Positions 48,373 to 62,165 of a DNA stretch of 64,000 nt are shown one piece after another. This DNA comes from Bacteroides fragilis (GTDB lineage Bacteria; Bacteroidota; Bacteroidia; Bacteroidales; DTGW01). The stretch spans positions 1,379 through 65,378 of the forward strand of contig CAMDBI010000011.1 in the NCBI GenBank assembly GCA_945889005.1. The letters run 5' to 3'. The notes beneath the pieces were generated by a model. It was not told the DNA's origin and did no database searches. It saw only the letters and a list, made by a program, of their open reading frames with translations. Position 1 is the stretch's first letter; each line of letters opens with the position of its first letter. A program made the translations under genes and the position numbers.

Positions 48373-49282
48373 ATACTTTTTAAATTCAATACTTTATACT
48401 TTTAAATCAAAAATATTACGAAAAAATGTTCCATTTATAGCAGGGGTGGTCATTAACAACGATTGTAATTTGAAGTGTAGTCAATGTTTTCTGCAAAACG
48501 AAAAAAGAACAACTTTGTCCATTCAGCAAATTTCGGACGGATTAGACCAATTGTATTCGCGAGGCATACGTTCTGTTGCCATTACAGGTGGCGAACCATT
48601 TATGTGGCGCGATGGCAATCTGAGGCTCAACAATGTTTTCAATTTGATTTATAAAAAAGGGTTTATGGTATCGAGTGTATATACCAATGGAACATTTGCT
48701 ATAAACACCTCTGCAGACAATGTATTTGTAAGCATCGACGGTACCGAAGCAACCACCAACAAGCTTAGGGGGCCAGTTTTTCATACAGTTATCAATAACA
48801 TCAAAGCATCGAAACACCCCAAGATTTTTATCAATTACACCATCAACAGCTTAAACTACACTGAAATCGAACAGTTTTGCCAATTTATAAAAACAATTCC
48901 ACAGATAAAAGGTGTGTTTTTTTATTTCTATACACCATATAATTCGATAGACGAACTCTATCTTTCGCGCGATGAAAGGGTTGAAATAGCTCGAAAAATT
49001 ATAGCTTTGAAAAAAATATATAAAATATTGAACTCACATGCTGCCCTCAACGATTTCATAAACAATAACTGGAGTCGTCCCTCTGATGTTTGTTTGGTAT
49101 ATTCCGACAAAGCCGAGATTGTTCGTTGTTGTCGTACTATTAAAAACCAAGAAGCATGCGACAACTGTGGATATTTGGGATACCTCGAAGTAATCGATGT
49201 TACAAAATTTAAACTCAGTGCAGTATGGGAAGCATTCAATTATTTGCCCAACAAAAGTTCGAGGGAAAGTTATGTTAATTAG
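48359..49282 (+). CDS. radical SAM protein
   Basis: 307 aa with CX3CX2C (NNDCNLKCSQCF), GGEPF, and a C-terminal Cys cluster (CCRTIKNQEACDNCGY). Confidence 0.8.
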   Translation: MLIAKYFLNSILYTFKSKILRKNVPFIAGVVINNDCNLKCSQCFLQNEKRTTLSIQQISDGLDQLYSRGIRSVAITGGEPFMWRDGNLRLNNVFNLIYKKGFMVSSVYTNGTFAINTSADNVFVSIDGTEATTNKLRGPVFHTVINNIKASKHPKIFINYTINSLNYTEIEQFCQFIKTIPQIKGVFFYFYTPYNSIDELYLSRDERVEIARKIIALKKIYKILNSHAALNDFINNNWSRPSDVCLVYSDKAEIVRCCRTIKNQEACDNCGYLGYLEVIDVTKFKLSAVWEAFNYLPNKSSRESYVN

Positions 49283-49973
49283 TGCAATTACAAAGGCAAT
49301 TCGCTGCTACTATGCCGGCAACAATAGTCAGTTTGCATTCAAAAAACACCTCAAACCCAAGATTGACAAAAACGATATTGATTCCATTCATTTATATATT
49401 CATGTTCCATTTTGTTCGCATTGCTGTCCATACTGCCCATACAATAAAATTCAGGTCGATACAAATTTGGTCGAATTGTTCTTCAAAGCACTGGAAACCG
49501 AGATTGAACTTTATCACAATACGGTGGGTTGTATCAATGTTTCGTCGATTTACTTTGGAGGAGGTTCTCCGGCATTATTCCCCGGAGAAGTCGCATCGGT
49601 AATTGAGCAATTACAAAAACTTTTTAAGGTAAATGGCGAAATATGTATTGAAATAAACCCCAACGATTGTACATTCGAAAATTTACAAATACTCAAAAAT
49701 GCAGGCATAAAAACAGTAAGTGTGGGCGTACAATCGTTTCAGGATATCAATCTGAATATAATTGGCAGGTCGTACAATGCACAGGTAGCCGAAAAGGCAG
49801 TTGAAACAGTATGTAGCATCTTCGATTCGGTCAATATCGATCTTATGTTTGCATTGCCAACTCAGGACAATGAAAGTCTGTTGTACGATTTGTCGAAAGC
49901 CATTGGTTTCGGGGTCAATCAGATTACAACCTACCCCCTCTTTACATTTCCATACACGAAAGTTAGCAACTAG
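49272..49973 (+). pseudogene. 5' part of an interrupted HemN-like (class C) radical SAM gene
   Basis: From ATG 49272: HVPFCSHCCPYCPY (CX3CX2C), ..YFGGGSP.., ..VSVGVQSF.., ..NIDLMFALPTQ.., ..QITTYPLFTFPYTKV. A stop follows 3 codons later. The C-terminal half is found at 61581-62165. Confidence 0.75.
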
Positions 49974-50105
49974 CGGGGAGCATTTTCCGTCATTTAACAA
50001 AAAAAATACCCGACGCACAAAGCAACAGTTTGGCAGCCCTTCCCTGCAAGCTTCGCTTCACTGCCAAACACTTGCTTTTTTCCTGCCGCTCCTGCTTCGT
50101 AGATA
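49974..50105. other. GC-rich structured module at the left end of the island
   Basis: Stem GTTTGGCAG / CTGCCAAAC (9 bp) encloses the 24-nt loop CCCTTCCCTGCAAGCTTCGCTTCA. The GC content looks far above the surroundings. Confidence 0.5.
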
Positions 50106-50209
50106 GTTTTGTGCATCTTGATAAATTTTAAAAATCGAAATTAAAGTTTAACTGATTATAATATAGAATTTTAAGAGTGATTTTTATTAACTAAATTATT
50201 AATAATTAT

Positions 50210-50587
50210 ATGTCTTCTGTTTTTTTAAAAAATGAAACCACTATTCGAAAATTTGATATTCAAGAATTGCTTTTTATTACATGTGACGATCATTGCCTTT
50301 CTTTTCATTCAGTAAATAATGTATTTCATACAACTGGATGTATTTGCGATGTTTTAAAAGCTCTTCCAAGCTATTTTGTCTTAATAAATCGCAATACCGT
50401 TATCAATCTTAAACATATTAAAGAGATTAATTTGCCTCTAAGAAGATTAATCTTACAAAACGATACAACACACACAATTTCAAGTCGTAAGATGAGTTCT
50501 TTATTAAAGATGTTTTGTTTTCCAAAAAGCAAGTTAATAATACATACGTTTAATGACGATAATTTCACGTTCACGAAGTGTAACTGA
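50210..50587 (+). CDS. standalone LytTR-type DNA-binding protein
   Basis: 125 aa with ..IQELLFITCDDHCLSFHS.. ..LPSYFVLINRNTVINLKHIKEIN.. ..HTISSRK.. matching the LytTR domain pattern. No receiver domain is present. Confidence 0.72.
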   Translation: MSSVFLKNETTIRKFDIQELLFITCDDHCLSFHSVNNVFHTTGCICDVLKALPSYFVLINRNTVINLKHIKEINLPLRRLILQNDTTHTISSRKMSSLLKMFCFPKSKLIIHTFNDDNFTFTKCN

Positions 50588-50636
50588 CATTTGCTTAAAG
50601 CAATTACTTATTTTCATTTATTTGTATTTTAAATTT

Positions 50637-50979
50637 TAAAAATGTGCCAGCATAAATCTTATAAATTTATTAACACTTTAAAATGGAGGAATTATTATGA
50701 AGAATTTATTTAGTAAGAAAATTTCAAAAGTCAAAGAAGACACACAAGCAAACTGGATTTGTCCATGTTTTGGAGGTTGCACAGGTAATTGTTTTGGAGC
50801 TTGTTATAGTTGTATTGGTGGCTGTAAAGGTGGTTGCTCTAGTTGTAGCGGGACTTGTATGGCTTGTGCAAATGCATGTAATATTAATTGCTTTGTTAGT
50901 ACATACTAATAGTTAGAATAAATGTTAAATATTTGAGAATATTCAAATTGTTTTTTTATAATTAGCTGGCACATTTTTA
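50637..50979. repeat. perfect 15-bp inverted repeat bracketing the precursor gene
   Basis: TAAAAATGTGCCAGC (50637-50651) and GCTGGCACATTTTTA (50965-50979) are exact reverse complements. They enclose the SD site, the ORF and its stop. Confidence 0.85.
50697..50909 (+). CDS. RiPP precursor peptide, 13-Cys CXXX-repeat core
   Basis: 70 aa. Leader MKNLFSKKISKVKEDTQANWI is followed by core CPCFGGCTGNCFGACYSCIGGCKGGCSSCSGTCMACANACNINCFVSTY. A GGAGG lies 7 nt upstream of the ATG. It sits next to exporter, peptidase and radical SAM genes. Confidence 0.8.
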   Translation: MKNLFSKKISKVKEDTQANWICPCFGGCTGNCFGACYSCIGGCKGGCSSCSGTCMACANACNINCFVSTY

Positions 50980-51223
50980 TTGTTTACCTTTAAATTAAGA
51001 TGAAAAAAATGCTTTTTATGCATAACGTTTTGCCAAAACAAGAAAATATGGTTATAAAGTTTGGTGTATTATGGTTTTAAAATATGATAAACTATTTAAG
51101 ATTGACTATTTTCTAATGACTATTAGAAATGTAATCAAATAGAATTAATTCTGAAAGCGTATTTGTAAACTTTAGTATTAAATTTTCTTGGTATATAATT
51201 TGTAATTTTAATTAACTTTTTAA

Positions 51224-53005
51224 ATGAGTTTGAATCTTTTTTCAAAGAATGATACTATTCTTCTTAAACGTGCGGCAAGTTACGTTAAACCATACAAAGC
51301 ACTTTTTTTAATTGCATTTTTTTGCATTTTGTGTGGTGTTGGAATTTCTATGGCACAACCACTTATTTGGGCAAAACTAATTACCAGTTTATTTGATCAA
51401 AGTTACTCAGGGCTTTTGTTCATAATACGTTATATGCTCTTGTTGTTTACTCTGAGTATAATTATTGGCTTTGCGCAATCATTCTTTTTTTCAACATTAA
51501 ATGAAAGAATGATTTATGATATAAAGCGGGATATGTTTGCCAAAGTACTGAATCTGCCAGTCAAAGCATTTGACGATATGAGAACTGGTGAATTTATGTC
51601 TAGGTTAAATAACGATGCCGGAGTAATTGCACATGTCATTACAAGTCAGTTGTTAAATAGTATTATTGATGTTTTAAGAGTTATAATTGTCGGTGTAATA
51701 ATGTTCAGCATAAGCGTAAAACTGTCTTTGGTGATACTTTTTGCCTTCCCTTTTAATTATGTTATTTTTTTCTATTTTGGCAAGATAATTCGCAAAAGAC
51801 AGGCAGCTATTGCAAAAATTAATGATACTTATTTTAGCATTGTTCAGGAATCAGTAAGTGGTGTCAGAGAAATAAAATCTTTAGGGATTAAACACAATGC
51901 CAATGAAAGATTCCTGAAAGTTACAAATATGCTAAAAAATAAAAATATTAAATTAAGCATTATAGGAAATGTTTCGAATTCATCATCACAAGTAGTCAAG
52001 TATGTTACTGAAATTATCGCCATATTTTTTGGTTTTTATTTAATAAAGATAGGGGAAATAAAAATTGAAATGTTCATTGCATTTATGGGGTATACAGAAA
52101 TGTTTAGTGCATCTTTAATGGCATTGACAAGTCTTAATTCAAATATTCAAGAGGCACTTGTTTCAGTTGGCAGAATATTTGGGCTTCTCGATAATCTAAA
52201 CTATTCACAGGAAAAATATGGCAATAGCAATGAACTTGCTATAAACGGCGAAATCTTTTTTGATAATGTTAGCTTTGGTTATGATACTAAAATGGAGGTA
52301 TTAAAGGATGTATCCTTTTCTTTAAAACCGAATAGAAAAATAGCATTAGTTGGAGGAAGTGGTGTAGGGAAAACAACTATAATTAATTTACTTCTGAAAT
52401 TTTATGAACCATCAAAAGGTGCAATTTGTATTGATGGTTATAATATTAGCGATTTCAATGAAGATACATTAAGAACTTTAATATCAGTAGTAAGGCAGGA
52501 ACCTTTTCTTTTTAATATGTCCATTAAAGACAATCTCCTATTAGCAAATTCATTTGCGACTATGGAAGAACTCATCAATGCCTGCACTTTTGCTTATATT
52601 CACGACTTTATCATGTTGTTACCTATGGGTTATGATACTATTGTAGGAGAAAGGGGCGTAAATTTTTCTGGTGGACAAAAACAACGATTCGCAATTGCTC
52701 GAGCTGTCTTAAAGAAGTCAAAAATTATTTTATTTGATGAAGCTACCTCAGCATTGGATAACGAATCTCAATATGCCATAAAAAAAGCAATCGACAAACT
52801 AGCAAAAGAAAAAACACTTTTAATTATTGCTCACAGGTTATTTACTATAATAGATGCAGATGAGATTATTGTTATGGACAATGGAGGAATAGTAGGTGTT
52901 GGTTCTCATAGTCTACTTTTAGAAAACAATGCCATTTATGCAAGGCTTTATAAGGCAGAGGTCGAAACAATAAGTATGAACCATCAAAATACTGTCGTTT
53001 CATGA
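51224..53005 (+). CDS. ABC exporter, fused permease-ATPase (type I exporter), no C39 peptidase domain
   Basis: 593 aa with a 6-TM N-half, Walker A GGSGVGKTT, signature SGGQKQR and Walker B IILFDEATSALD. Confidence 0.9.
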   Translation: MSLNLFSKNDTILLKRAASYVKPYKALFLIAFFCILCGVGISMAQPLIWAKLITSLFDQSYSGLLFIIRYMLLLFTLSIIIGFAQSFFFSTLNERMIYDIKRDMFAKVLNLPVKAFDDMRTGEFMSRLNNDAGVIAHVITSQLLNSIIDVLRVIIVGVIMFSISVKLSLVILFAFPFNYVIFFYFGKIIRKRQAAIAKINDTYFSIVQESVSGVREIKSLGIKHNANERFLKVTNMLKNKNIKLSIIGNVSNSSSQVVKYVTEIIAIFFGFYLIKIGEIKIEMFIAFMGYTEMFSASLMALTSLNSNIQEALVSVGRIFGLLDNLNYSQEKYGNSNELAINGEIFFDNVSFGYDTKMEVLKDVSFSLKPNRKIALVGGSGVGKTTIINLLLKFYEPSKGAICIDGYNISDFNEDTLRTLISVVRQEPFLFNMSIKDNLLLANSFATMEELINACTFAYIHDFIMLLPMGYDTIVGERGVNFSGGQKQRFAIARAVLKKSKIILFDEATSALDNESQYAIKKAIDKLAKEKTLLIIAHRLFTIIDADEIIVMDNGGIVGVGSHSLLLENNAIYARLYKAEVETISMNHQNTVVS

Positions 53006-53709
53006 GTTTAGTAGATGAAAACAGACAAAAGGTAAGAGTGGTTGTAATTGATAGTGGGATTGACTCATCTGTTTCTACTCTAAAACACAATATAATTAAA
53101 TCAACAGGTTTCTGGGTAAATTCTGTTGGTTTGATTGGTGAAGTTTCTAATAAACAAATTAATAGTTTACATGGCACTTCAGTTGCGTTAGTAATAAAGG
53201 ATATTTGTAACAATGTAGAATTTGTTAGTTTTAATATTTTAAATGAAAGGTTAAAAACCGATAGCAGAATAATGATTTACGCAATGAATGAGGCTTTGAG
53301 AGAGAAGCCTAATATTATTCATTTGAGTTTAGGAACAAGTAATTGGAGATATTACTTTTATATAAAAAAAATTGTTAATGAGGCCAAGAAAAATAATATT
53401 ATTATTGTTGCAGCCTATAACAACAAAGGAATATTTCCATCTTATCCAGCTTCAATAAGGGGTGTTGTTGGAGTAAAGAGCTTATTCAACAATTCCGGGA
53501 AAAACTTTTTCTATTATAAATACGGTCGTTACTATGCACCCAATTCACTAAACGAGATTGAAGGTTCTTCAGAATTGATAAATGCTGTTGAAATTAAAGG
53601 GACAAGTATTTCAGCCGCTTATATTACTGGACATATTGCTAATGTAATATTTAATCAAGACATTCATAATTATAATGATATTTTAAAAAGTTTAAAAACG
53701 AGAACTTAA
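53002..53709 (+). CDS. minimal S8 (subtilisin-like) serine peptidase, no signal peptide
   Basis: 235 aa with Asp (VVVIDSGID), His (SLHGTSVA), Asn (AAYNN) and Ser (KGTSISAAYITGH). Its ATG overlaps the ABC stop (ATGA). Confidence 0.8.
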   Translation: MSLVDENRQKVRVVVIDSGIDSSVSTLKHNIIKSTGFWVNSVGLIGEVSNKQINSLHGTSVALVIKDICNNVEFVSFNILNERLKTDSRIMIYAMNEALREKPNIIHLSLGTSNWRYYFYIKKIVNEAKKNNIIIVAAYNNKGIFPSYPASIRGVVGVKSLFNNSGKNFFYYKYGRYYAPNSLNEIEGSSELINAVEIKGTSISAAYITGHIANVIFNQDIHNYNDILKSLKTRT

Positions 53710-53721
53710 AATAAATCTAAA

Positions 53722-55887
53722 ATGACTGAGACAAGAAGTATTAAAATGGGAAACCTTAATAAGGAATGGATGAACGGTGCAGCAAAAAATATAACATTTT
53801 GTGTTACCGAAGATTGTAATCTTGCCTGTAAATATTGTTATATGACAGGCAAAAACGGCACTGTTAAAATGAATTTCGAAACAGCAAAAAAGGCTGTTGA
53901 TTTTATTCTTAATAGCAATAGTGACGAATTTAAACAAAAAGCTGTTATATTTGATTTTATTGGTGGTGAGCCGTTTTTGGAAATTGAACTTATTGATAAA
54001 GTTTCAGATTATATTAAAATCCAAATGTTTGAAATGGATCACAAATGGTTTGATTATTATAGGTTCAGTTTTTCATCCAACGGTTTGTTATATGGGACAA
54101 AAAAAGTACAAGAGTATATTCAAAAGAATCGAGGGCATATTTCCATTGGACTAAGTGTTGATGGAAATAAGTATAAGCATGATTTACAACGCATAAAAAA
54201 GGATGGTTCAGGCTCTTATGATGATGTAGTTAAAAATGTTCCTTTGTGGTTAGAACAATTTCCTTTTGCTACTACTAAGGCTACATTTTCTCACGAAGAT
54301 ATACCATATTTAAAAGATAGTATCATCAGTCTGTGGAACTTGGGCTTAAAAGAAATTCCTGCCAATGTTGTTTTTGAAGATGTCTGGCATGAAGGAGATG
54401 ATGTTATTTTTGAGAACCAATTGAAAGAATTGGCAGATTATATTATTTCTAATGAGTTATGGTGGGAACATTCAGTTAGATTTTTTGATCCCAAAACAGG
54501 TACCCCTCTTTCGCAAAGTGATTTAAATAAAAATTATTGTGGCTCAGGAAAAATGTTATCTATAGATTGCAATGGAGATCTCTTCCCATGCATAAGGTTT
54601 TGCGATATAAGTTTAAACAACCGTGAACCAATAATAATTGGAAATATTGAAAGTGGTATTGATGAGGATAAAGTACGTCCTTTTAAACTGCTTTCATATA
54701 AAAATCAAAGCCCAGAAGAATGTATGAACTGTCAGGTTGCATCAGGGTGTGCTTGGTGTACTGGAGCAAATTACGATTTTGCTGATTCAGATACCATCTA
54801 CCAAAGAGCAATATTTATTTGCAAAATGCATAAAGCGAATGTTCGTGCTAATGAATATTTTTGGAATAAACTTAAAGAACAATTAGGCTATATGCCTCAT
54901 GAAAGGCAAACATGGATTGAAATGAATAAAGTAGAAAATAAATATCTGCAAATAATGACTTCCGATCAAATAATACCCCATTGTAATTACAGAAATTGGC
55001 ATAATAAGAACAATAAAATGGATGATGCAATTTTTGAGAAAAGTATAAAGTTTGCTAAGGAAAATGGCTTTGTTGTGGTTTTTTTTGAAGAGTTTGAAAA
55101 TAAAAGGATTGCAGCTAAAAATCTAAGTGGTATTAATGTAGTTGATGGCAATTCAACTAAATATATCGAAGGTAACAACCTTTATATATTTGACAATTTC
55201 GTAAATGATAATATGGAAAATGTTCAAAACTTGATTCTTCGAATTCATGCTGAAAATATTTCCAATATATATAACTATATTCAAAAACTAACCAATAAGT
55301 CTACAAGAATAAATCTTCAATTGGAATCCATTGAGCGATGGACAGATATCGAATTGCAAATATATGAATCACAATTAAGCCAATTATCTGATTTGGTATT
55401 TGAATCTTACAAAAACAATAATCCTATTGAAATAAATGTTCTAACTGATATAATGGAATTAGAAAGTATTAATGAATGTGGGGCAGGTATTTCTTCTTTT
55501 GCTGTTGCTCCGAATGGTAAAATATATCTATGTCCAGCTTTTTATTTTGAAAACCCGGAAAATTCAATTGGAAGTATAGATGAGGGTATTTCCATAATAA
55601 ATAGTCATATGTTATATGCTGAAAATTCTCCAATTTGTTCAAAATGCGATGCCTTTCATTGTAATAGATGTAAATTTTTGAATAAGAAACGAACCAACGA
55701 AATTAATACCCCTTCAAAGATGCAATGTATTATTAGTCATATTGAAAGAAATAAATCTAGAGAACTTCAATTGCGTTTAAAGGAATGGGGTTTTAATGAT
55801 TTCAAAAATTTCATTAAAGAAATCGATTATCTAGACCCTTTAGACCACCTATTATTAACTCACGATAGCGATGGACGTTGTATATAA
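53722..55887 (+). CDS. radical SAM / SPASM peptide maturase with a second C-terminal SPASM-like Cys-rich domain
   Basis: 721 aa with CX3CX2C (EDCNLACKYCY) and GGEPF. The first SPASM region is CGSGKMLSIDCNGDLFPC..CMNCQVASGCAWC. The C-terminal half repeats the pattern as CGAGISSFAVAPNGKIYLCP..CSKCDAFHCNRC..C. Confidence 0.88.
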   Translation: MTETRSIKMGNLNKEWMNGAAKNITFCVTEDCNLACKYCYMTGKNGTVKMNFETAKKAVDFILNSNSDEFKQKAVIFDFIGGEPFLEIELIDKVSDYIKIQMFEMDHKWFDYYRFSFSSNGLLYGTKKVQEYIQKNRGHISIGLSVDGNKYKHDLQRIKKDGSGSYDDVVKNVPLWLEQFPFATTKATFSHEDIPYLKDSIISLWNLGLKEIPANVVFEDVWHEGDDVIFENQLKELADYIISNELWWEHSVRFFDPKTGTPLSQSDLNKNYCGSGKMLSIDCNGDLFPCIRFCDISLNNREPIIIGNIESGIDEDKVRPFKLLSYKNQSPEECMNCQVASGCAWCTGANYDFADSDTIYQRAIFICKMHKANVRANEYFWNKLKEQLGYMPHERQTWIEMNKVENKYLQIMTSDQIIPHCNYRNWHNKNNKMDDAIFEKSIKFAKENGFVVVFFEEFENKRIAAKNLSGINVVDGNSTKYIEGNNLYIFDNFVNDNMENVQNLILRIHAENISNIYNYIQKLTNKSTRINLQLESIERWTDIELQIYESQLSQLSDLVFESYKNNNPIEINVLTDIMELESINECGAGISSFAVAPNGKIYLCPAFYFENPENSIGSIDEGISIINSHMLYAENSPICSKCDAFHCNRCKFLNKKRTNEINTPSKMQCIISHIERNKSRELQLRLKEWGFNDFKNFIKEIDYLDPLDHLLLTHDSDGRCI

Positions 55888-55915
55888 CAAAAGTTTAATT
55901 TTAAAAACAAACAAA

Positions 55916-56209
55916 ATGAATAAAGAAAAAGTAGGTTTTGTAACTGAAGAAGAAAAAGAAGAAATAAGGGTTCTTCACGAAAGGAAATTGGCATTGAATG
56001 AACTTATTCCTTCTCTTGGAACTGGATTGTTATCCGATGACAAAAGAAACGAAATATACGAAAAGGTTTTACAAGACATGGGTAAAACTAATTCATTATT
56101 TCAGGCATGGTGGAATAGCAAAAGTGTTAAATACAACTGGAAATCAATGGAAAATGGTAATTGGTCGATTGATTTTGATACAAATGAAATTTTTTTAGTT
56201 ACAAACTAA
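55916..56209 (+). CDS. small Trp-rich accessory protein of the RiPP cassette
   Basis: 97 aa from ATG 55916 (MNKEKVGFVTEEEKEE.. ..FQAWWNSKSVKYNWKSMENGNWSIDF..). The ORF-track start at 55871 overlaps the radical SAM gene end. Function unknown. Confidence 0.5.
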   Translation: MNKEKVGFVTEEEKEEIRVLHERKLALNELIPSLGTGLLSDDKRNEIYEKVLQDMGKTNSLFQAWWNSKSVKYNWKSMENGNWSIDFDTNEIFLVTN

Positions 56210-56235
56210 AATGAAATTTTAAATTATTTGAGTAT

Positions 56236-56286
56236 GTATACTTTTTTAATAATATTATCGTTATTAGAAAAGTATACTCGTTTTTT
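56236..56286 (+). terminator. Rho-independent terminator closing the RiPP core operon
   Basis: Stem GTATACTTTT (56236-56245) / AAAAGTATAC (56268-56277) is followed by TTTTTT (56281-56286). Confidence 0.5.
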
Positions 56287-56317
56287 ATGCTTTTATAGAA
56301 CGTTATTTTATTAATTT

Positions 56318-59218
56318 ATGAGAATTTGGTTATTACTTTTTTTATTCTTCTATTGTAATATGTCCATTATTTCTCAGTCTGATTCTATAAAATCAAATAG
56401 AAATTATATTATTCACGGATATGTTACCGATAGCGAAACGGGGGAGCATTTGAATGGTGTTGTAATTACTGAGGAAAATACCAATGTGAGCACAATTACC
56501 AATAATTATGGCTTTTATAGTATTAAACTTTCTGAAAGTCAGATCAAATTAAATATTTCATATATTGGATATAGGAATGAAATACAAGAACAAAGTCTTT
56601 TAAAAAATACCGAACTAAATATTCCATTGTTGCCTTTGCCTATTGAAATTAAAGAAGTTATTATAACCGATAAAAATACCCTGAAACAAGTTGAAAGTTC
56701 ACAAATGGGTGTAAACGAGCTGCAAATGAAAAATCTCAAAAGCATTCCGGTACTTGCAGGAGAAAACGATATTATTAAAACAATGCAATTATTACCGGGA
56801 GTTCAGCAAGGGTCTGAAGGTTCTTCTTCGCTTTATATCAGAGGAGGCAGTTCAGACCAAAACCTTATTTTGCTTGATGAGGCTTCGGTTTATAATATCA
56901 ATCATTTATTTGGGTTTATGTCTACATTTAATGATGATGCTATTCAAAGTGCAACAGTTTTAAAAGGTGGGATTCCTGCCCGCTATGGTGGGCGACTTTC
57001 TTCTGTTGTAGATGTTCGTATGAAAGAAGGAAATAATCAGAACGTTGAAAGTCAAGGTTCAATAGGAACAATTGCATCAAGGTTTACTATCTCTGGGCCA
57101 ATTGTAAATAATAAAACATCTTTTATGTTCTCGGCTCGAAGATCTTATTTTGATTTACTTACTCGACCTTTATTAAAACTCATGGAATTGGTAAATGGAG
57201 AACAAGTAAAGTCGTTTTATTATTTTCAAGATTATAATCTTAAAGTCAACCATATATTTTCATCAAACAGCCGTCTGTTTTTTAGCATTTATACTGGAAA
57301 CGACGTAATAAGTGATTATATGAAAACGAATCATAATAATCGGCCTTTTTTAGAAACCTATGAATTTAATTGGGGCAACATTACTGCAACAACTCGTTGG
57401 AACTATAAATTTGGTGACAGATTATTCAGCAATTTCACATTGATTTATAGCCAATATATGAATAATGCTCATTTTAATAATTCATGGACAGATACTTCTC
57501 ATATTAACTATAAAGATTACGGAAATTTTAAATCGGGAATTCGAGATTATTCAGCTAAGTCCGATTTTTATTTTTATATTAATTCAAACCATACGTTTCG
57601 TTTTGGTTCCCAAAGCACTTTACATATATTTTATCCCGGTAATCTATTTGAGGGTTCTTATATTCAGAACTTCAATAATACAAAAACAGATACTTCTATA
57701 AATCTAAAAGCGATTAATCTTGCTGAAAATGAATTGTACCTCGAAGATGAAATGAAAATTGGTAATAAATGGAGAGCCAATTTAGGCCTGAGGTATTGTC
57801 AAGCAACAGTTGAAAACAAAACATATAATTCAATACAGCCTCGTTTAAGTCTTTCTTACTTAATTGCTGAGAATTGGTCAGTCAAAGCTGCATTGTGTAA
57901 TATGAACCAAAATATGAACCTTTTAACTGGCTCATCTTCAAACGGACTTCCAATGGATTTGTGGATTCCAACTACAGGTATTTTAAAGCCTCAAAGTTCT
58001 AAACAGTATTCAGTTGGTTCGGTTTTATTATTCAACAGCAGTATTGAATTTATTACGGAATTATTCTATAAAAACATGCAAAATGTTCTTGATTACCGTG
58101 ATGGCACAAGCTATGTTTTTGCTGATAAAGAATGGCAAAGTAAGATTGTTCAAGGTAATGGCATTGCCTATGGTGCTGAATTTATGGCAGAAAAGAAAAC
58201 AGGCAATACATTTGGTTGGTTTAACTATACTTGGAGCAAAAGTTTGCGACAATTTAATGAAATAGACAATGGTCAGAGGTTTCCTTACCAATATCATCGT
58301 ACACACAATATTAACTTTATGGTAGTTCACCGTTTTTCGGAAAAGTTTGAAATTGGTGCTATTTGGGTATTTTCATCCGGTCGTTTTTTAACAGTGAATA
58401 ACCAGAAATATTCTTCGTATCTTGAACCCAGAAGCAATGTTGAAACATATACTAATCGTAGTAATTTTGAAGCTCCTGCATATCATCGGTTGGATGTAAA
58501 TTTGAGATTTTCGAAACAAAAGAAGTGGGGAGTCAGAACATGGAGTATAGGTTGTTACAACTTGTACAACCGTCAGAATCCCTCAATTGTTTATGTTTCC
58601 GATAATAAAGTGCACCAATTGGCTATTATGCCTATTATACCGTCAGTGTCATATAATTATAAATTTGGAATGAAGCGAGTTTCTTCAATAAAGCCTACGT
58701 TTGATATCCCTGTAGAAAGCACCCCAATTGTTGAAAAAAAAGATACTTTTTTAAAAATCATTGATAATAAAATTCAGATATTAAATACCAATAAAGGAAA
58801 TAGAATAGTAGGTTTAAATTTTAATATCAGTTTATCAAGTACCAGTAAAAGCATTTTGTTCAATTTAACCTCGGCCAAGTTCGTATTAAATAATTTGGCA
58901 ATAGGTTCTTCTTTAGGTTATACTTACAATAAATATTTTGTTAACGATATTGAAAACACTATACAAACAATAAATTATGGCTTTTTGAGTAGATATTACA
59001 TTGGCAAATACAAAATCAAACCATTTGTTCAAATTATACCGGGTTTAAAAATTACTAGTCAGGAAACACTAAGTTTTAATAAATTCTTAAATAATGGGCT
59101 AGGCGTAGCTTGTTTTTTAGCTGATAGAATAGCTCTCGAAGCATTGTTGAGCAACGATTATAATCAGAATGCAATTTCATTCCGAATAGGCTTTCAAATA
59201 TATTTTTCTAAAAAATAA
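56318..59218 (+). CDS. TonB-dependent receptor (CarboxypepD_reg-plug-barrel) with extra ~183-aa C-terminal beta-barrel-like domain
   Basis: 966 aa. A signal peptide is followed by ..YIIHGYVTDSETGEHLNGVVI.., a plug and a barrel ending ..SVSYNYKF at residue ~783. The frame then continues for 183 aa of alternating beta-strand-like sequence ending ..RIGFQIYFSKK. Confidence 0.82.
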   Translation: MRIWLLLFLFFYCNMSIISQSDSIKSNRNYIIHGYVTDSETGEHLNGVVITEENTNVSTITNNYGFYSIKLSESQIKLNISYIGYRNEIQEQSLLKNTELNIPLLPLPIEIKEVIITDKNTLKQVESSQMGVNELQMKNLKSIPVLAGENDIIKTMQLLPGVQQGSEGSSSLYIRGGSSDQNLILLDEASVYNINHLFGFMSTFNDDAIQSATVLKGGIPARYGGRLSSVVDVRMKEGNNQNVESQGSIGTIASRFTISGPIVNNKTSFMFSARRSYFDLLTRPLLKLMELVNGEQVKSFYYFQDYNLKVNHIFSSNSRLFFSIYTGNDVISDYMKTNHNNRPFLETYEFNWGNITATTRWNYKFGDRLFSNFTLIYSQYMNNAHFNNSWTDTSHINYKDYGNFKSGIRDYSAKSDFYFYINSNHTFRFGSQSTLHIFYPGNLFEGSYIQNFNNTKTDTSINLKAINLAENELYLEDEMKIGNKWRANLGLRYCQATVENKTYNSIQPRLSLSYLIAENWSVKAALCNMNQNMNLLTGSSSNGLPMDLWIPTTGILKPQSSKQYSVGSVLLFNSSIEFITELFYKNMQNVLDYRDGTSYVFADKEWQSKIVQGNGIAYGAEFMAEKKTGNTFGWFNYTWSKSLRQFNEIDNGQRFPYQYHRTHNINFMVVHRFSEKFEIGAIWVFSSGRFLTVNNQKYSSYLEPRSNVETYTNRSNFEAPAYHRLDVNLRFSKQKKWGVRTWSIGCYNLYNRQNPSIVYVSDNKVHQLAIMPIIPSVSYNYKFGMKRVSSIKPTFDIPVESTPIVEKKDTFLKIIDNKIQILNTNKGNRIVGLNFNISLSSTSKSILFNLTSAKFVLNNLAIGSSLGYTYNKYFVNDIENTIQTINYGFLSRYYIGKYKIKPFVQIIPGLKITSQETLSFNKFLNNGLGVACFLADRIALEALLSNDYNQNAISFRIGFQIYFSKK

Positions 59219-59225
59219 ATAATAA

Positions 59226-60068
59226 ATGACGAAACACATTCTAAACATAATTTATATTATTTTCTTTCCAGCTTTATATTCTTGCGATAAAGAAATAGAC
59301 ACTAATATTTCAGGTGGGAATGATGAATATGTTGTTAATGCGACCTTATGCTCCGATAGTATTGTAAGTATGGTTGTATACAATACTAGTAATATACTTG
59401 ATAATTCTCAGCCATTATTTGTGAATTCCGTTTCTGCTTTACTTTATGAGGGCAGAAGTATTATAGATACTTTTATTTACAATGGAAGTGGTAGATATTT
59501 GTGTAAAATTAAACCTGTGTCAAATAAACCATATTCATTAAAAATTAAAATTAATGGACATTCTATAACTTCAACAGATACAATTCCAAAAAAGGTTAGA
59601 ATTCAGAGTGTCGATACTTTTTTAGTTGGCAATAAGTTGTTTTGTTCTGTTAATATTACCGACCCAATTAATACCGATAATTATTATTTATTTACAATGA
59701 ATTCTGCTCAAAAATATAGTCCCGAAAAGTTTATTAAGCAGGAGTTTACATGTAATGACCCAATGATAACTAACGCTGATGTGGTTGACAGTCTTGATGG
59801 TGGTAATATTATTTTCTTTCGTGACACTCAATTTAAAGGTAAATCCCATGCATTGTTTATATCTTTACCATATCAAAAAGAAAAAGTTTTAAATTTTCAG
59901 CTTTGGTCTATTAGTCATGCTTTTTATAATTATTGCCATTCAATAGTTATTAATAGACAGTTCAAATCATCATTATTTAATGAGAAAGTAAAAGTCCAAA
60001 GTAATATTATAGGTGGAAAAGGTATATTTGCAGCATACTCAGTAGATACATTGCAAGTTATATTATAG
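59226..60068 (+). CDS. DUF4249-like lipoprotein (usual partner of this receptor class)
   Basis: 280 aa with lipobox ALYSC. It lies immediately downstream of the receptor. The family call rests on context and layout. Confidence 0.65.
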   Translation: MTKHILNIIYIIFFPALYSCDKEIDTNISGGNDEYVVNATLCSDSIVSMVVYNTSNILDNSQPLFVNSVSALLYEGRSIIDTFIYNGSGRYLCKIKPVSNKPYSLKIKINGHSITSTDTIPKKVRIQSVDTFLVGNKLFCSVNITDPINTDNYYLFTMNSAQKYSPEKFIKQEFTCNDPMITNADVVDSLDGGNIIFFRDTQFKGKSHALFISLPYQKEKVLNFQLWSISHAFYNYCHSIVINRQFKSSLFNEKVKVQSNIIGGKGIFAAYSVDTLQVIL

Positions 60069-60159
60069 TATATTAATTTTATGAAATAATATTCAAAAAT
60101 AATAATGATTTTTTTTATTTTTATGCTTTCATAAACCGTTAAACTAAAACTAACTCATT

Positions 60160-60894
60160 ATGTCGAATACCCGCAATTACAATTACAAAGATGTTGAAAT
60201 GCTTGTAACATCGAAAACTATTGCCGAAAATTTCAAAACAAATCTTACAGAATTATCATCAACTCGTTCCGATTGGACCGAACAGTATGCAACCGATTTA
60301 ATTTCACGTATCGACAATGCAATCGACAATTATCTGGGAACCGATGCCAAAAAGGAACTTCGAAATGCTACTGCAAACTTAGGAAGTATTCAAGTCCCTG
60401 CCAAAAGAGACATTTCGTTTTTCAAAACACAAATTGACGATGACTTTAAAAAAGACACTGCCAAGCGTGAAGAAATACTTAAAACCCTTGGTTTTACAAA
60501 GCATTTAAAAGACGTTCAAAAAGGCAAACACGAAGCACTTATACAGCTTCTGTATACCTTCAAAACAAACATGACCGACGATTTGCGTAATTCAATCATT
60601 GCTAATGGTGTAAATGCAACTTTAATAGACAACATTATTGGATATGCCGATGCTTTCAAACAAGCAAGTGTAAAACAAGAAACTCTTAAAGAATCAACCA
60701 AAGAAATTACCAAAGAAGTAGCCGACACCTTTAATGCCATTTACGACGAGATTATCGGACTTTGCAAAAAAGCATCGAACTATTATCAATACGAACCACT
60801 CAAGAAAGAACAATTTACTTTTAGTAAAGTAATAGACAACTTGGGAGCAACTCGTAAGATAGCCGAAAAGGCAGTTGCACAACCAGCAAACTAA
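60160..60894 (+). CDS. hypothetical helical protein
   Basis: 244 aa with no signal peptide and no recognisable motif. It is the last ORF of the island. Confidence 0.5.
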   Translation: MSNTRNYNYKDVEMLVTSKTIAENFKTNLTELSSTRSDWTEQYATDLISRIDNAIDNYLGTDAKKELRNATANLGSIQVPAKRDISFFKTQIDDDFKKDTAKREEILKTLGFTKHLKDVQKGKHEALIQLLYTFKTNMTDDLRNSIIANGVNATLIDNIIGYADAFKQASVKQETLKESTKEITKEVADTFNAIYDEIIGLCKKASNYYQYEPLKKEQFTFSKVIDNLGATRKIAEKAVAQPAN

Positions 60895-60922
60895 TCTCTT
60901 TTGATAGCAATCGAATAATATT

Positions 60923-60957
60923 AGAACTTGTCAGATTCGTCGAATTTGGCAAGTTCT
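60923..60957 (+). terminator. long near-perfect hairpin after the last island ORF
   Basis: AGAACTTGTCAGATTCG-T-CGAATTTGGCAAGTTCT forms about 17 pairs counting G-U. The U-tract is weak (TTTA). Confidence 0.35.
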
Positions 60958-60985
60958 TTATACTACTTGTCAATATATAAATTAA

Positions 60986-61245
60986 ACATAGGACAAGTAT
61001 CAATAAAGATAGGAGTCCAATTGAATAAGATTTATGTCATAAATATAACATAGGAGTTAATTTATAATAGTTAGGACAAACAACGAATTAGATAGGAGTT
61101 AATTTTTATTACATAGGAGATTGTTAATTGTTTGTAGACCTTAATAAATAGAAGATAGATATTAATTCGATAAACATAGGAATAAACTCCTATAACATAG
61201 GACAATTAAAGATTAACATAGGATAGATAAAGAATAACATAGGAC
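60986..61245 (+). repeat. array of 9-bp ACATAGGA(N) boxes phased every ~21 bp
   Basis: ACATAGGA starts at 60986, 61048, 61111, 61174, 61195, 61216 and 61237. Variants (GATAGGAG/GTTAGGAC) start at 61008, 61070 and 61091. One inverted copy (CTCCTAT) lies at 61187-61193. The last four boxes are spaced exactly 21 bp apart. Confidence 0.85.
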
Positions 61246-61260
61246 ACAATAAAAAATAAA

Positions 61261-61420
61261 AAGGGAGAGTGTCACAAGCCCTCGCACGCCGTCCCCTCTG
61301 CTGTGAGGCACATGCCGCTTTTCCCGCAAGGCAAACGCACTTTCCAAAAAGCGGCAAGAGCCTCCAGCCCGTCCCTCGCCACCCACAGTAGCAGCTTTTT
61401 CACTTTTAATCGTCATTAAA
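61261..61420. other. GC-rich structured module at the right end of the island (candidate ncRNA or recombination structure)
   Basis: Stem GCCGCTTTT / AAAAGCGGC (9-10 bp) encloses a 24-nt loop CCCGCAAGGCAAACGCACTTTCCA. Flanking direct repeats of CCGTCCC(C)TC and CCCTCGC are present. The GC content looks far above the surroundings. Confidence 0.5.
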
Positions 61421-61580
61421 ATAAAAAAAACAAAAAATGTAGTACAAATCGCCAGTTGCTAACAGCGGGTAAAGTCAATAGCGGGTTTAGTGGGTTATTC
61501 AGCTCCTCGTCACGCAGGTAGTTTTATCTTGTTGGATAGGATTGTATCTCCGTATTCCGCTACTGACCTTACCCGCAAAC

Positions 61581-62165
61581 GTTGGGAATTATAAAAAAAT
61601 AAAGCGTGTAAAAATGCCTAATTTAAGTACCCGAAAAAAACAATACTACAGCATTTACGATACATTAATAACCCAAGGTTACGGTCAAGTATCGGTTTGG
61701 AGTTTCAAAAAAGGTGAAGGTGTTAAATATTCCTCTGTAACACGCGATGGATATTTGGGATTTGGAGCAGGTGCAGGCACACACCTCAATAATGCTTATC
61801 TTTTAAATACTTTCCCAGTTAAGTCCTATATTGAAAAGCTCGATAGCCGAGAATTCCCAACAGCTCTAAAATTTGCAATGTTGCCCTATATGAATAATTT
61901 GTTTTGGCTTTATTGGAGATTTTACGACACTCGAATACCTGTTTCAGATTTTAATTCGCGATTTGGAAAAGTAGGAAAAATAAAACGACTATTATTCCTG
62001 ATGAGAATTTTGGGTATGCTTACGAAAACCGAAAACGAATATTTACTTACCCGCAAAGGCTCTTTTTGGCTACACTTGGCTCAAAATTACTTTTCACTTC
62101 AGTATATAAACAAAATTTGGTCGGTTTGCCTTACCAACAATTATCCCAAAGAAATAAAATTCTAA
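61581..62165 (+). pseudogene. 3' part of the interrupted HemN-like radical SAM gene (HemN_C-like half)
   Basis: The frame is open from 61542. From Val14 (61581) it reads VGNYKKIKRVKMPNLSTRKKQYYSIYDTLITQGYGQVSVWSFKK..GFGAGAGTHL... This is the region that follows the radical SAM core in HemN/HemW-like proteins. Confidence 0.75.

What the first reader, a model, noticed from the sequence alone, without database searches (positions are those of the whole stretch)
50210..56209. Self-contained RiPP cassette for a 13-cysteine CXXX-repeat peptide
Six co-directional genes lie between a GC-rich island end and a terminator (56236-56286). They are a standalone LytTR regulator, a 70-aa Cys-rich precursor, an ABC exporter, a cytoplasmic mini-subtilisin overlapping the exporter stop (ATGA), a 721-aa radical SAM/SPASM enzyme and a 97-aa Trp-rich protein. 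I recall NCBIfam/TIGRFAM models named 'radical SAM peptide maturase, CXXX-repeat target family' and 'CXXX repeat peptide maturase'. To my knowledge neither the chemistry nor the function of such a product has been determined. This locus has regulator, precursor, maturase, protease and exporter, so it is a tractable example.
Basis: partly seen in the sequence, partly recalled or inferred. Interest (0 to 1): 0.85.

Follow-up and report, generated by a model that had tools for sequence, protein, structure and literature searches.

The report
CXXX-repeat peptide maturation cassette, Bacteroidales variant
This is a real and complete gene set for making a 13-cysteine modified peptide of a family that was named long ago but whose chemistry I could not find described, and in this lineage it comes with its own outer-membrane receptor pair on an inserted DNA island.

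Summary
All six genes are intact and co-directional. The 70-aa precursor has 13 Cys and scores 33.4 against 35 on TIGR04118, just under the cut-off.

The family is common, with at least 576 species in one genome scan, so this is a member of a known kind whose chemistry seems unsolved.

- **The cassette is not self-contained.** In 7 of 9 sister loci, including the window, a TonB-dependent receptor plus DUF4249 lipoprotein pair directly follows it. In the six loci other than the window, that pair has diverged about as much as the maturase.
- **It is the Bacillota-type architecture in a probable Bacteroidales genome.** This type has a fused maturase, an ABC exporter and a QhpE-like protease. It sits on an 11.6-kb low-GC insertion that splits a HemN-family gene. 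The native Bacteroidales type instead uses a split maturase, Tat-signal precursors and TatA/TatC.
- **The precursor ORF is enclosed by a conserved, covarying long-range stem.**

The likely mechanism is radical SAM cross-linking of the cysteines, then leader removal and ABC export. The receptor's role is unknown.

The parts
49965..61583 (.). 11.6-kb low-GC insertion that carries the whole system and splits a HemN/HemW-family radical SAM gene. The N-terminal part of that gene is at 49197-49973 and the C-terminal part at 61542-62165.
   Evidence: The two fragments match NF006385 profile positions 20-243 and 253-414. An intact 424-aa orthologue, P0128, is 71% identical over the whole of the rejoined protein; the pairwise alignment, made with extra junction residues included, gives 69%. 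DNA alignment to the intact gene in L090 places the breaks after 49964 and before 61584. The junctions carry AAAGTT on the left and AAACGTT on the right. GC is 30.7% in the insertion against 36.1% in the rest of the window.
50210..50587 (+). Stand-alone LytTR DNA-binding regulator, 125 aa, with no receiver domain.
   Evidence: Pfam LytTR PF04397 at 47.5 bits, E 2e-12. Orthologues at 64-67% identity sit in the same position in L003, L084 and L087.
50638..50651 (+). 5' arm of the long-range stem that encloses the precursor ORF (AAAAATGTGCCAGC), 57 nt upstream of the ATG by the script's count.
   Evidence: Inverted repeat I14. The arm is present in six loci at 56-70 nt from the ATG. Across 15 pairs, 95.6% of cells are paired and 3 pairs carry compensatory changes; 0 of 500 shuffles reach the covariation score. 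The stem appears in both the minimum-energy and centroid folds.
50697..50909 (+). Precursor peptide, 70 aa. It has a leader of about 20 aa (MKNLFSKKISKVKEDTQAN) and a core with 13 Cys and no Asp or Glu. A GGAGG Shine-Dalgarno sequence sits 7 nt upstream.
   Evidence: TIGR04118 at 33.4 bits against a cut-off of 35, E 3e-8. The leader aligns with precursors in 46 peptides from related loci, and the spacing and composition statistics are. This ORF was not called in the ENA annotation of the same contig.
50965..50978 (+). 3' arm of the long-range stem (GCTGGCACATTTTT), 56 nt after the stop codon.
51224..53005 (+). ABC exporter, a half-transporter with a fused transmembrane domain and ATPase, and no C39 peptidase domain.
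   Evidence: Pfam ABC_membrane and ABC_tran. It aligns to the bacteriocin-exporter profile TIGR01193 only from position 155 onward, which means the N-terminal peptidase domain is missing. A homologue is present in 35 of 42 Bacillota-type loci.
53002..53709 (+). Small subtilisin-like serine protease, 235 aa, with no apparent signal peptide on inspection (no predictor was run). It is the presumed leader peptidase.
   Evidence: The best NCBIfam match is QhpE at 111 bits, against a cut-off of 165. Pfam Peptidase_S8 matches. The catalytic motifs are DSG with Asp17, HGT with His57 and GTS with Ser202. The nearest solved relative is the lantibiotic leader protease CylA. The ATGA overlap with the ABC stop codon was read.
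53722..55887 (+). Fused maturase of 721 aa. Residues 21-380 are a radical SAM/SPASM domain. Residues 503-710 are a second SPASM-bearing module with no radical SAM cluster.
   Evidence: TIGR04115 at 555.7 bits against 350, and TIGR04119 at 279.4 against 150. The cluster-binding cysteines are C32/C36/C39, with two seven-Cys SPASM sets at 273-367 and 586-669. Profile comparison of the two halves gives 93.7% probability and E 2e-7, which indicates an internal duplication. The top structural matches are CteB, anSME and ChlB.
55916..56209 (+). TIGR04116 'CXXX repeat peptide modification system protein', 97 aa. It is a conserved accessory protein of unknown role.
   Evidence: 89.6 bits against a cut-off of 50. 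BLAST finds it in 73 of 80 loci. The AlphaFold model has mean pLDDT 92 and the topology strand-helix-helix-strand-strand. No solved structure matches below E 0.3, and no PqqD or RRE-type protein appears in the listed top matches.
56230..56286 (+). AT-rich intrinsic-terminator-like hairpin followed by a T-run, after the biosynthetic operon.
   Evidence: RNA fold z-score -4.9; 0 of 200 shuffles fold as well. The sequence was read.
56318..59218 (+). TonB-dependent receptor of 966 aa. It has a CarboxypepD_reg-like domain, a plug and a barrel, plus an extra C-terminal stretch of about 180 aa that no family model matched.
   Evidence: Pfam domains. A receptor of this type directly follows TIGR04116 in L003, L083, L086, L087, L088 and L089. 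Those six are 61-76% identical to one another but only 31% identical to this one.
59226..60068 (+). DUF4249 lipoprotein, with a Cys (LYSC) at the end of its hydrophobic N-terminus that reads as a lipobox. It is the partner of the receptor.
   Evidence: PF14054 at 84 bits. A gene with the same family hit follows the receptor in L083, L086, L087 and L088, and a homologous ORF does so in L089. These five are 46-63% identical to one another and 22-27% identical to the window protein.
60160..60894 (+). 244-aa protein with no family match. Its membership in the system is uncertain.
   Evidence: No NCBIfam or Pfam hit. It shares the upstream motif TTTATGC-N(0-10)-AMCGTT with the ABC and receptor units. 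That motif occurs 3 times in 64 kb, all inside the island, against 0.15 expected by chance. No homologue was found in sister loci.

Best explanation
This is a complete CXXX-repeat peptide system of the monoderm (Bacillota) type, carried on a horizontally acquired island in a probable Bacteroidales chromosome.

Inferred order of events:

1. The 70-aa precursor is translated from a transcript whose two untranslated ends pair and enclose the ORF.
2. In the cytoplasm, the fused radical SAM/SPASM maturase uses 5'-deoxyadenosyl radical chemistry to cross-link the regularly spaced cysteines. The most likely product is a series of small thioether rings, as made by its nearest characterised relatives PapB, CteB and QhpD. 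The acceptor carbons must differ from those relatives, because the core has no Asp or Glu. The TIGR04116 protein probably assists.
3. The cytoplasmic QhpE-like subtilisin removes the leader of about 20 residues.
4. The ABC half-transporter, which lacks its own peptidase domain, moves the product across the inner membrane.
5. In this diderm lineage, a co-inherited TonB-dependent receptor and DUF4249 lipoprotein handle the product at the outer membrane, most plausibly by taking it up.
6. The stand-alone LytTR protein regulates the locus.

Shown here: gene content, family membership, conservation of the precursor and of the receptor pair, the insertion, and the covarying stem. Inferred: the chemistry, the order of steps, the role of the receptor and the biological function.
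For: - **Family models.** The curated models are met.
- **Nearest relatives.** The nearest characterised enzymes all form thioethers from Cys: PapB at 220 bits, CcpM, QhpD and the SCIFF maturase. CteB is the best match both by sequence against solved structures and by fold.
- **A documented parallel pathway.** The combination of radical SAM enzyme, QhpE-like protease and ABC exporter matches the QhpD, QhpE and QhpF pathway. There, cross-linking happens first, then leader cleavage, then export (PMC7876137).
- **Division of labour.** The ABC exporter lacks a C39 peptidase domain, which leaves leader removal to the S8 protease. That protease has an intact catalytic triad.
- **Precursors elsewhere.** Precursors with the same leader motif and CXXX periodicity accompany the enzyme in most loci. 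Exactly three residues separate cysteines in 84-90% of spacings.
- **Receptor pair.** It follows the cassette in 7 of 9 sister loci, including the window, although the outer flanking genes differ. In the six loci other than the window it has diverged about as much as the maturase: receptors 61-76% identical, maturases 62-73%.
- **Foreign origin.** Both maturase domains are closer to Bacillota versions (65% and 43%) than to native Bacteroidales split versions (55% and 32%). A GGAGG Shine-Dalgarno sequence is conserved. The island has lower GC and splits a gene.
Against: - No product has been observed, so the chemistry rests entirely on homology.
- The window core has no Asp or Glu, whereas PapB is reported to need a thiol and a carboxylate (PMC9413430). 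The positions between cysteines carry no conserved acceptor residue; they are only enriched in Gly, Ser and Thr.
- Neither the maturase nor the TIGR04116 protein shows a recognisable leader-binding (RRE) domain, so how the leader is recognised is unexplained.
- The window's receptor pair is only 31% and 22-27% identical to those of sister loci. It may be a replacement or even a coincidental neighbour. It also lies beyond a terminator.
- The native Bacteroidales type has no linked receptor.
- The host phylum is inferred from gene types and from the closest locus (a Bacteroidales MAG), not from marker genes.
Confidence: 0.65

Rival explanations
1. The product is a metal-binding peptide, either metallophore-like or metallothionein-like. 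Most cysteines would stay as thiolates or become other metal ligands, the peptide would be secreted, and the peptide-metal complex would be recaptured through the dedicated TonB-dependent receptor, as in methanobactin operons.
For: - The core is 28-30% Cys and rich in Gly, Ser and Thr, which resembles metallothioneins (this comparison is from my own knowledge).
- A TonB-dependent receptor is co-inherited with the cassette.
- The native Bacteroidales type exports its precursors through Tat, with dedicated TatA and TatC. Tat typically carries folded or cofactor-loaded cargo (general knowledge).
- No conserved carbon-acceptor residue is evident.
Against: - All close characterised relatives of the maturase consume the Cys thiol to form thioethers (PMC9413430; PMC7876137). 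Thioethers are poor metal ligands.
- No inner-membrane importer or metal-responsive regulator is present in the island.
- The Bacillota versions have no uptake component among the recurrent neighbouring genes.
Confidence: 0.2
2. The product is an ordinary secreted antimicrobial or signalling peptide. The receptor and DUF4249 pair would be either an immunity or uptake-blocking device, or a neighbour that travels on the same mobile DNA without acting on the peptide.
For: - LytTR regulators, alone or as response regulators, together with histidine kinases, accompany some Bacillota loci. This is the usual layout of pheromone-controlled bacteriocin loci (general knowledge).
- A terminator separates the receptor from the biosynthetic operon.
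- The window's receptor pair is not orthologous to those of sister loci.
- One sister cassette, L085, has no receptor.
Against: - The pair keeps the same position and order in seven loci whose outer flanks differ, and has diverged in step with the maturase in six of them.
- In the window, the slot is filled by a distant pair of the same two families, which points to a requirement rather than hitch-hiking.
- A motif found only three times in 64 kb precedes the ABC, receptor and 244-aa units.
Confidence: 0.25
3. The cassette is a decaying remnant on a dead island and makes no product in this organism.
For: - No ORF in the 11.6-kb insertion matches an integrase, transposase or relaxase family.
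- The insertion has inactivated a host gene.
- The right end is 690 bp of repeats and GC-rich non-coding DNA.
Against: - All eight core ORFs are full length, with catalytic and cluster-binding residues intact.
- The same sequence was recovered in two independent assemblies.
- The regulatory stem and the Shine-Dalgarno sequence are conserved.
Confidence: 0.08

Closest known systems
CXXX-repeat peptide modification system (NCBIfam/TIGRFAM TIGR04115, TIGR04119, TIGR04116 and TIGR04118), as found in Clostridium and other Bacillota
   Same: - Same maturase, with both domains fused in one protein.
- Same accessory 97-aa protein.
- Same leader motif (LFSxKKI...D[VT]xGY-like) and same CXXX periodicity.
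- Usually the same ABC exporter and small S8 protease.
   Different: - The host is a probable diderm Bacteroidales.
- The precursor lies upstream of the exporter rather than downstream of TIGR04116.
- The regulator is a stand-alone LytTR protein.
- A TonB-dependent receptor and DUF4249 pair is attached.
- A covarying stem encloses the precursor ORF.
Native Bacteroidales CXXX-repeat systems, with a split maturase (for example Hoylesella loescheii and MAGs of Paludibacteraceae and Muribaculaceae)
   Same: Same two maturase modules, same TIGR04116 protein, and the same Cys-every-fourth cores.
   Different: - The maturase is two separate genes.
- Precursors carry twin-arginine-type leaders (SRR-x-FFK).
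- TatC is present in 25 of 37 loci and TatA in 12.
- There is no ABC exporter, S8 protease or linked receptor.
- Identity to the window enzyme is only 55% for the N-terminal domain and 32% for the C-terminal domain.
PapB and PapA (freyrasin, a ranthipeptide)
   Same: PapB is the closest characterised family by HMM score, at 220 bits. It also acts on a peptide with a four-residue repeat, where each Cys closes a small ring (PMC9413430).
   Different: - The score is below the PapB cut-off of 340.
- PapB links Cys to Asp or Glu in Cys-X3-Asp/Glu motifs, and the window core has no acidic residue.
- The PapB family profile is only 330 positions long and matches only the radical SAM/SPASM half of the window enzyme. 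This suggests PapB has no second SPASM module, and I know of no TIGR04116 partner for it; neither point was checked on PapB itself.
QhpD, QhpE and QhpF, which mature the gamma subunit of quinohemoprotein amine dehydrogenase
   Same: The same three components: a thioether-forming radical SAM enzyme, a small cytoplasmic subtilisin that removes the leader after cross-linking, and an ABC exporter (PMC7876137). The window protease's best family match is QhpE.
   Different: - Scores are below the cut-offs: QhpE 111 against 165, and QhpD 132 against 453.
- No dehydrogenase subunits or QhpG are present.
- The substrate is a free peptide with 13 Cys, not an enzyme subunit with three Cys-Asp/Glu links.
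CteB and SCIFF peptides (thermocellin)
   Same: CteB is the nearest solved structure, with the same radical SAM and SPASM fold.
   Different: - The alignment begins at CteB residue 96. That N-terminal part is CteB's leader-binding domain (my own knowledge), and the window enzyme has no counterpart to it.
- The score on the SCIFF maturase model is 131 against a cut-off of 425.

Membership tests
CXXX-repeat peptide modification system (NCBIfam) | The radical SAM domain scores above the TIGR04115 cut-off. | tested here: met
   555.7 bits against 350, covering the full profile 1-359.
CXXX-repeat peptide modification system (NCBIfam) | The CXXX repeat peptide maturase domain (TIGR04119) is present. 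| tested here: met
   279.4 bits against 150, residues 503-710.
CXXX-repeat peptide modification system (NCBIfam) | The accessory protein TIGR04116 is encoded next to the maturase. | tested here: met
   89.6 bits against 50. It begins 29 nt after the maturase stop codon.
CXXX-repeat peptide modification system (NCBIfam) | The precursor matches the AC3_0185-family model TIGR04118 above its cut-off. | tested here: inconclusive
   33.4 bits against 35, E 3e-8. The leader and the CXXX core align with 46 precursors from related loci.
CXXX-repeat peptide modification system (NCBIfam) | The core has cysteines at every fourth residue. | tested here: met
   There are 13 Cys, and 8 of the 12 spacings are exactly three residues. 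The family-wide figure is 84-90%.
Radical SAM/SPASM peptide maturases | A CX3CX2C cluster motif together with a seven-Cys SPASM motif. | tested here: met
   C32/C36/C39 and C273...C367 are invariant in 18 homologues. The SPASM Pfam domain matches.
Ranthipeptide, PapB/freyrasin type | The enzyme scores above the PapB family cut-off (NF047865). | tested here: not met
   220.5 bits against 340.
Ranthipeptide, PapB/freyrasin type | Cys-X3-Asp/Glu acceptor motifs in the core. | tested here: not met
   The window core has no Asp or Glu. Across the family's cores, Asp makes up 3% of residues and Glu 1-3%. The acceptor rule is taken from PMC9413430.
Ranthipeptide or sactipeptide (thioether RiPPs in general) | A sulfur-to-carbon cross-link in the mature peptide. 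| not testable with these tools
   This needs mass spectrometry or NMR on the product.
Anaerobic sulfatase maturase | The enzyme scores above the TIGR03942 cut-off and a sulfatase substrate gene is nearby. | tested here: not met
   61.8 bits against 349. None of the ORFs profiled in the island is a sulfatase.
QHNDH gamma-subunit maturation (qhp operon) | QhpD and QhpE equivalogs together with the qhpA and qhpB structural genes. | tested here: not met
   QhpE scores 111 against 165 and QhpD 132 against 453. No dehydrogenase genes are in the island.
Peptidase-containing ABC bacteriocin exporters | An N-terminal C39 peptidase domain on the exporter. | tested here: not met
   The alignment to TIGR01193 starts at profile position 155, and the protein starts with its membrane domain.
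RRE (PqqD-like) leader-recognition proteins | A winged-helix fold of three strands and three helices, in TIGR04116 or fused to the maturase. | tested here: not met
   The TIGR04116 model (pLDDT 92) has the topology strand-helix-helix-strand-strand, with no PDB match below E 0.3. The maturase aligns to CteB only from residue 96. Its C-terminal half is an alpha/beta region plus a SPASM-like module.

The most novel reading that the evidence does not exclude
A monoderm-type poly-cysteine RiPP cassette was transferred into Bacteroidales. There it became fixed together with a dedicated TonB-dependent receptor and DUF4249 lipoprotein. This would mean the mature peptide is actively taken back across the outer membrane and works as a metallophore or an imported signal rather than as a bacteriocin. 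If so, DUF4249 would gain its first functional context, and the CXXX-repeat family its first hint of function.
Probability: 0.25. Interest if true: 0.7.

Novelty: new variant of a known kind. Interest (0 to 1): 0.45.

Why it matters
The CXXX-repeat system has carried a curated family name for years, and one scan found it in at least 576 species. I found no report of what the maturase does to a peptide in which every fourth residue is cysteine, or of what the product is for.

This locus does not change that, and cultured Clostridium carriers are easier to work with. What the comparison adds is usable structure for the problem:

- There are two export solutions. One uses an ABC exporter plus a QhpE-like protease. 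The other uses Tat-signal precursors with TatA and TatC.
- The ABC type has crossed into a diderm lineage.
- In that lineage it is tied to a receptor and lipoprotein pair whose function is unknown.
- The precursor message is enclosed by a conserved stem.

Each of these points to a concrete experiment on the function and regulation of the family.

Tried and rejected
- **TIGR04116 as leader-recognition protein.** I tested whether it is a PqqD-like leader-binding (RRE) protein. The model is confident but has a different topology, and only helical-hairpin matches at E above 0.3 came back. Rejected.
- **A leader-binding domain hidden in the maturase.** There is no N-terminal extension. The C-terminal half turned out to be a duplicated barrel-end plus SPASM module.
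- **Known RNA families in the island's non-coding ends.** The Rfam search gave only one chance-level hit, and there are no tRNAs.
- **Terminal inverted repeats of the island.** Only 7-10-nt matches at chance level were found.
- **The shared upstream motif as a conserved operator.** The motif TTTATGC...AMCGTT is absent from sister loci. It is specific to the window and its role is unknown.
- **The 244-aa protein as part of the conserved set.** L087 has a 247-aa ORF in the same position, but BLAST finds no similarity.
- **Literature.** Seven searches with family accessions, names and descriptive phrases found nothing on this family's chemistry. The 2011 paper by Haft and Basu on radical SAM families and their target peptides, where I expected the family to be described, is not held in the library.
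- **Host taxonomy.** Profiling of chromosomal genes found Lon, PcrA and MurA but gave no lineage information.

Full report
**Observation.** The six genes exist as described.

- They are a 125-aa LytTR protein, a 70-aa precursor with 13 cysteines, a 593-aa ABC half-transporter, a 235-aa subtilisin, a 721-aa radical SAM enzyme and a small Trp-rich protein.
- The subtilisin's ATG overlaps the transporter's TGA as ATGA.
- The small protein's longest ORF is 112 aa. Homologues are 96-99 aa and the family model matches from residue 20, so the 97-aa form starting at 55916 is the likely product.
- The terminator is an AT-rich hairpin at 56230-56279 with an 18-bp core stem, followed by a T-run. The GC-based scan missed it, but its fold z-score is -4.9.

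- The maturase scores 555.7 bits on TIGR04115 (cut-off 350) and 279.4 on TIGR04119 (cut-off 150).
- The small protein scores 89.6 on TIGR04116 (cut-off 50).
- The precursor scores 33.4 on TIGR04118, 1.6 bits under the cut-off.
- The sulfatase-maturase model scores only 61.8 against 349.
- The next best characterised families all form thioethers from cysteine: PapB 220 bits, CcpM 136, the nif11-like peptide maturase 134, QhpD 132 and the SCIFF maturase 131.
- CteB is the nearest solved structure by sequence and by fold.

**How common it is.** Many are cultured Clostridium and Ruminiclostridium strains. The family is therefore known and abundant. Seven literature searches found no paper on its chemistry. 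The library lacks most subscription journals, so that absence is not proof.

**Two architectures.** I compared 80 related loci and eight closer ones.

- *Type A* is mainly found in Bacillota.
  - It has a fused maturase (42 of 42 loci), an ABC exporter (35), TIGR04116 (30 or more) and a small S8 protease (24).
  - Its precursors have a leader of about 20 residues, of the form M-x-x-LFS-x-KKI...D[VT]-x-GY.
- *Type B* is found in Bacteroidales.
  - It has the two maturase modules as separate genes.
  - Its precursors carry twin-arginine-type leaders (32 of 37 loci).
  - TatC is present in 25 loci and TatA in 12.
  - It has no ABC exporter, protease or linked receptor.
- The window is type A.
  - Its two maturase domains are 65% and 43% identical to Bacillota versions, against 55% and 32% to type B.
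  - Its closest relatives, at 61-68%, form a small sub-clade, and the one placed in a named genome is a Bacteroidales MAG.
- All six sub-clade loci in which the flanking stem was found keep a GGAGG Shine-Dalgarno sequence before the precursor. To my knowledge this is unusual for Bacteroidota.

**Precursor features.**

- Across 47 type A and 34 type B peptides, 84-90% of Cys-Cys spacings are exactly three residues.
- The middle position is Gly in 34-41% of repeats, and the third position is Gly, Ser or Thr in 59-72%.
- No other residue is conserved.
- The window core has no Asp or Glu. PapB is reported to need a thiol and a carboxylate in Cys-X3-Asp/Glu motifs (PMC9413430).
- The enzyme therefore probably makes small rings with the same four-residue period, but onto a different acceptor. 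This is inference only.

**Enzyme anatomy.**

- The invariant cysteines are C32/C36/C39, one seven-Cys SPASM set at 273-367 and a second at 586-669.
- Profile comparison of the two halves gives 93.7% probability and E 2e-7.
- The AlphaFold model has mean pLDDT 74. It shows an alpha/beta region followed by a SPASM-like module in the C-terminal half.
- The C-terminal half is thus a duplicated module without a radical SAM cluster, and the protein could hold up to five Fe-S clusters.
- No leader-binding domain was found. The alignment to CteB starts at CteB residue 96.
- TIGR04116 models confidently (pLDDT 92) as strand-helix-helix-strand-strand, with no solved counterpart.

**Processing and export.**

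- The exporter lacks a C39 peptidase domain.
- The separate protease has motifs for Asp17, His57 and Ser202.
- Its best family match is QhpE.
- In the qhp pathway, the radical SAM enzyme cross-links first, QhpE then removes the leader in the cytoplasm, and an ABC transporter exports the product (PMC7876137).
- I take that order as the working model here.

**The cassette is not self-contained.**

- A receptor with CarboxypepD_reg, plug and barrel domains, followed by a DUF4249 protein, comes directly after TIGR04116 in the window and in L083, L086, L087, L088 and L089. In L003 the receptor follows in the same position; the gene after it was not examined.
- The genes beyond the pair differ between loci.
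- L084 ends before that point, and L085 lacks the pair.
- Among the six sister loci the receptors are 61-76% identical, close to the 62-73% range of their maturases. This indicates co-inheritance.
- The window's receptor is only 31% identical to them, and its DUF4249 protein only 22-27%.
- The same slot is thus filled by a distant pair of the same two families. I read this as replacement under a functional requirement, although chance is not excluded.
- Type B loci have no such pair.

**Mobile context.**

- The system lies in an 11.6-kb insertion (49965-61583) that splits a HemN-family gene.
- The two fragments match profile positions 20-243 and 253-414.
- An intact 424-aa orthologue is 71% identical across the rejoined protein.
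- DNA alignment fixes the junctions, which carry AAAGTT on the left and AAACGTT on the right.
- The island is 30.7% GC against 36.1% elsewhere in the window.
- None of its ORFs matches a recombinase family.
- A sister cassette, L084, sits beside relaxase, MobC-like and Toprim genes.

**A conserved stem around the precursor.**

- AAAAATGTGCCAGC (50638-50651) pairs with GCTGGCACATTTTT (50965-50978).
- Six loci have the pair at similar distances.
- Three of the 15 pairs show compensatory changes, 95.6% of cells are paired, and no shuffle reaches the observed covariation.
- Both the minimum-energy and centroid folds contain the stem.
- An RNA stem joining the two untranslated ends is the simplest reading. 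Inverted repeats maintained at the DNA level remain possible.

**Verdict.** This is a genuine, intact member of a known family whose chemistry I could not find described, in a previously undescribed diderm-adapted variant. The interest is moderate.

Noticed in passing
window 49197-49973 and 61542-62165; junctions at 49964|49965 and 61583|61584: A HemN/HemW-family radical SAM gene is split by the 11.6-kb island. Intact 424-aa orthologues exist, such as P0128 at 71% identity. The junctions carry AAAGTT on the left and AAACGTT on the right, which may be a target-site duplication. None of the island's ORFs matches an integrase or transposase family.
   Followed up: yes
window 60985-61240: About nine copies of an ACATAGGA-like motif lie in the non-coding right end of the island (repeat families D1, D3 and D9). 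A GC-rich stretch follows at 61260-61400. They could be recombinase or regulator binding sites. There is no Rfam hit.
   Followed up: partly
window 49996-50103; L090 165-274: The GC-rich left end of the island is 79% identical over 111 nt to a sequence in the genome that carries the intact HemN gene. There it lies at a different place, upstream of the operon. This looks like a small repeated GC-rich element of unknown nature.
   Followed up: partly
window 50638-50651 and 50965-50978; also L003, L084, L086, L087, L089: A conserved inverted repeat encloses the precursor ORF, with compensatory changes at three pairs in six loci. It is either a stem joining the 5' and 3' untranslated regions of the RNA or an inverted repeat maintained at the DNA level.
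   Followed up: yes
window 51015-51029, 56284-56304, 60120-60140: The motif TTTATGC-N(0-10)-AMCGTT occurs three times in 64 kb against 0.15 expected. All three copies are inside the island, upstream of the ABC, receptor and 244-aa units. It is not found in sister loci.
   Followed up: partly
window 50683-50689; same position in L003, L084, L086, L087, L089: A strong (T)GGAGGA Shine-Dalgarno sequence is conserved before the precursor ATG in all six sub-clade loci that carry the flanking stem. It may be a relic of a Bacillota origin.
   Followed up: partly
L046-L082 (type B loci): Native Bacteroidales CXXX-repeat loci encode their own TatC (25 of 37 loci) and TatA (12). Their precursors have SRR-x-FFK twin-arginine-type leaders, which implies Tat export of the modified peptide.
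   Followed up: partly
window 58640-59218 (receptor residues about 784-966): The window's TonB-dependent receptor has an extra C-terminal stretch of about 180 aa that the 786-792-aa receptors of sister loci lack. No Pfam family matches it.
   Followed up: partly
L001 6866-7503 (window 50588-51223): The precursor gene was not called in the ENA annotation of this contig, although it was called in the Logan assembly. Its exact sequence was also not found in the 15-billion-protein collection.
   Followed up: yes
L084 2882-5594: A sister cassette lies directly downstream of Toprim, NikA/MobC-like and relaxase genes. At least one member of the sub-clade therefore sits on a mobilisable element.
   Followed up: no
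L083 4185-4945; L087 5476-6256: Two sister loci carry two tandem TIGR04116 paralogues instead of one.
   Followed up: no
window 48359-49282: A second radical SAM gene of 307 aa, with a weak PTO1314-like match, overlaps the start of the split HemN-family gene's longest ORF. The same gene pair is adjacent in L090. It is the host operon that the island disrupted.
   Followed up: partly
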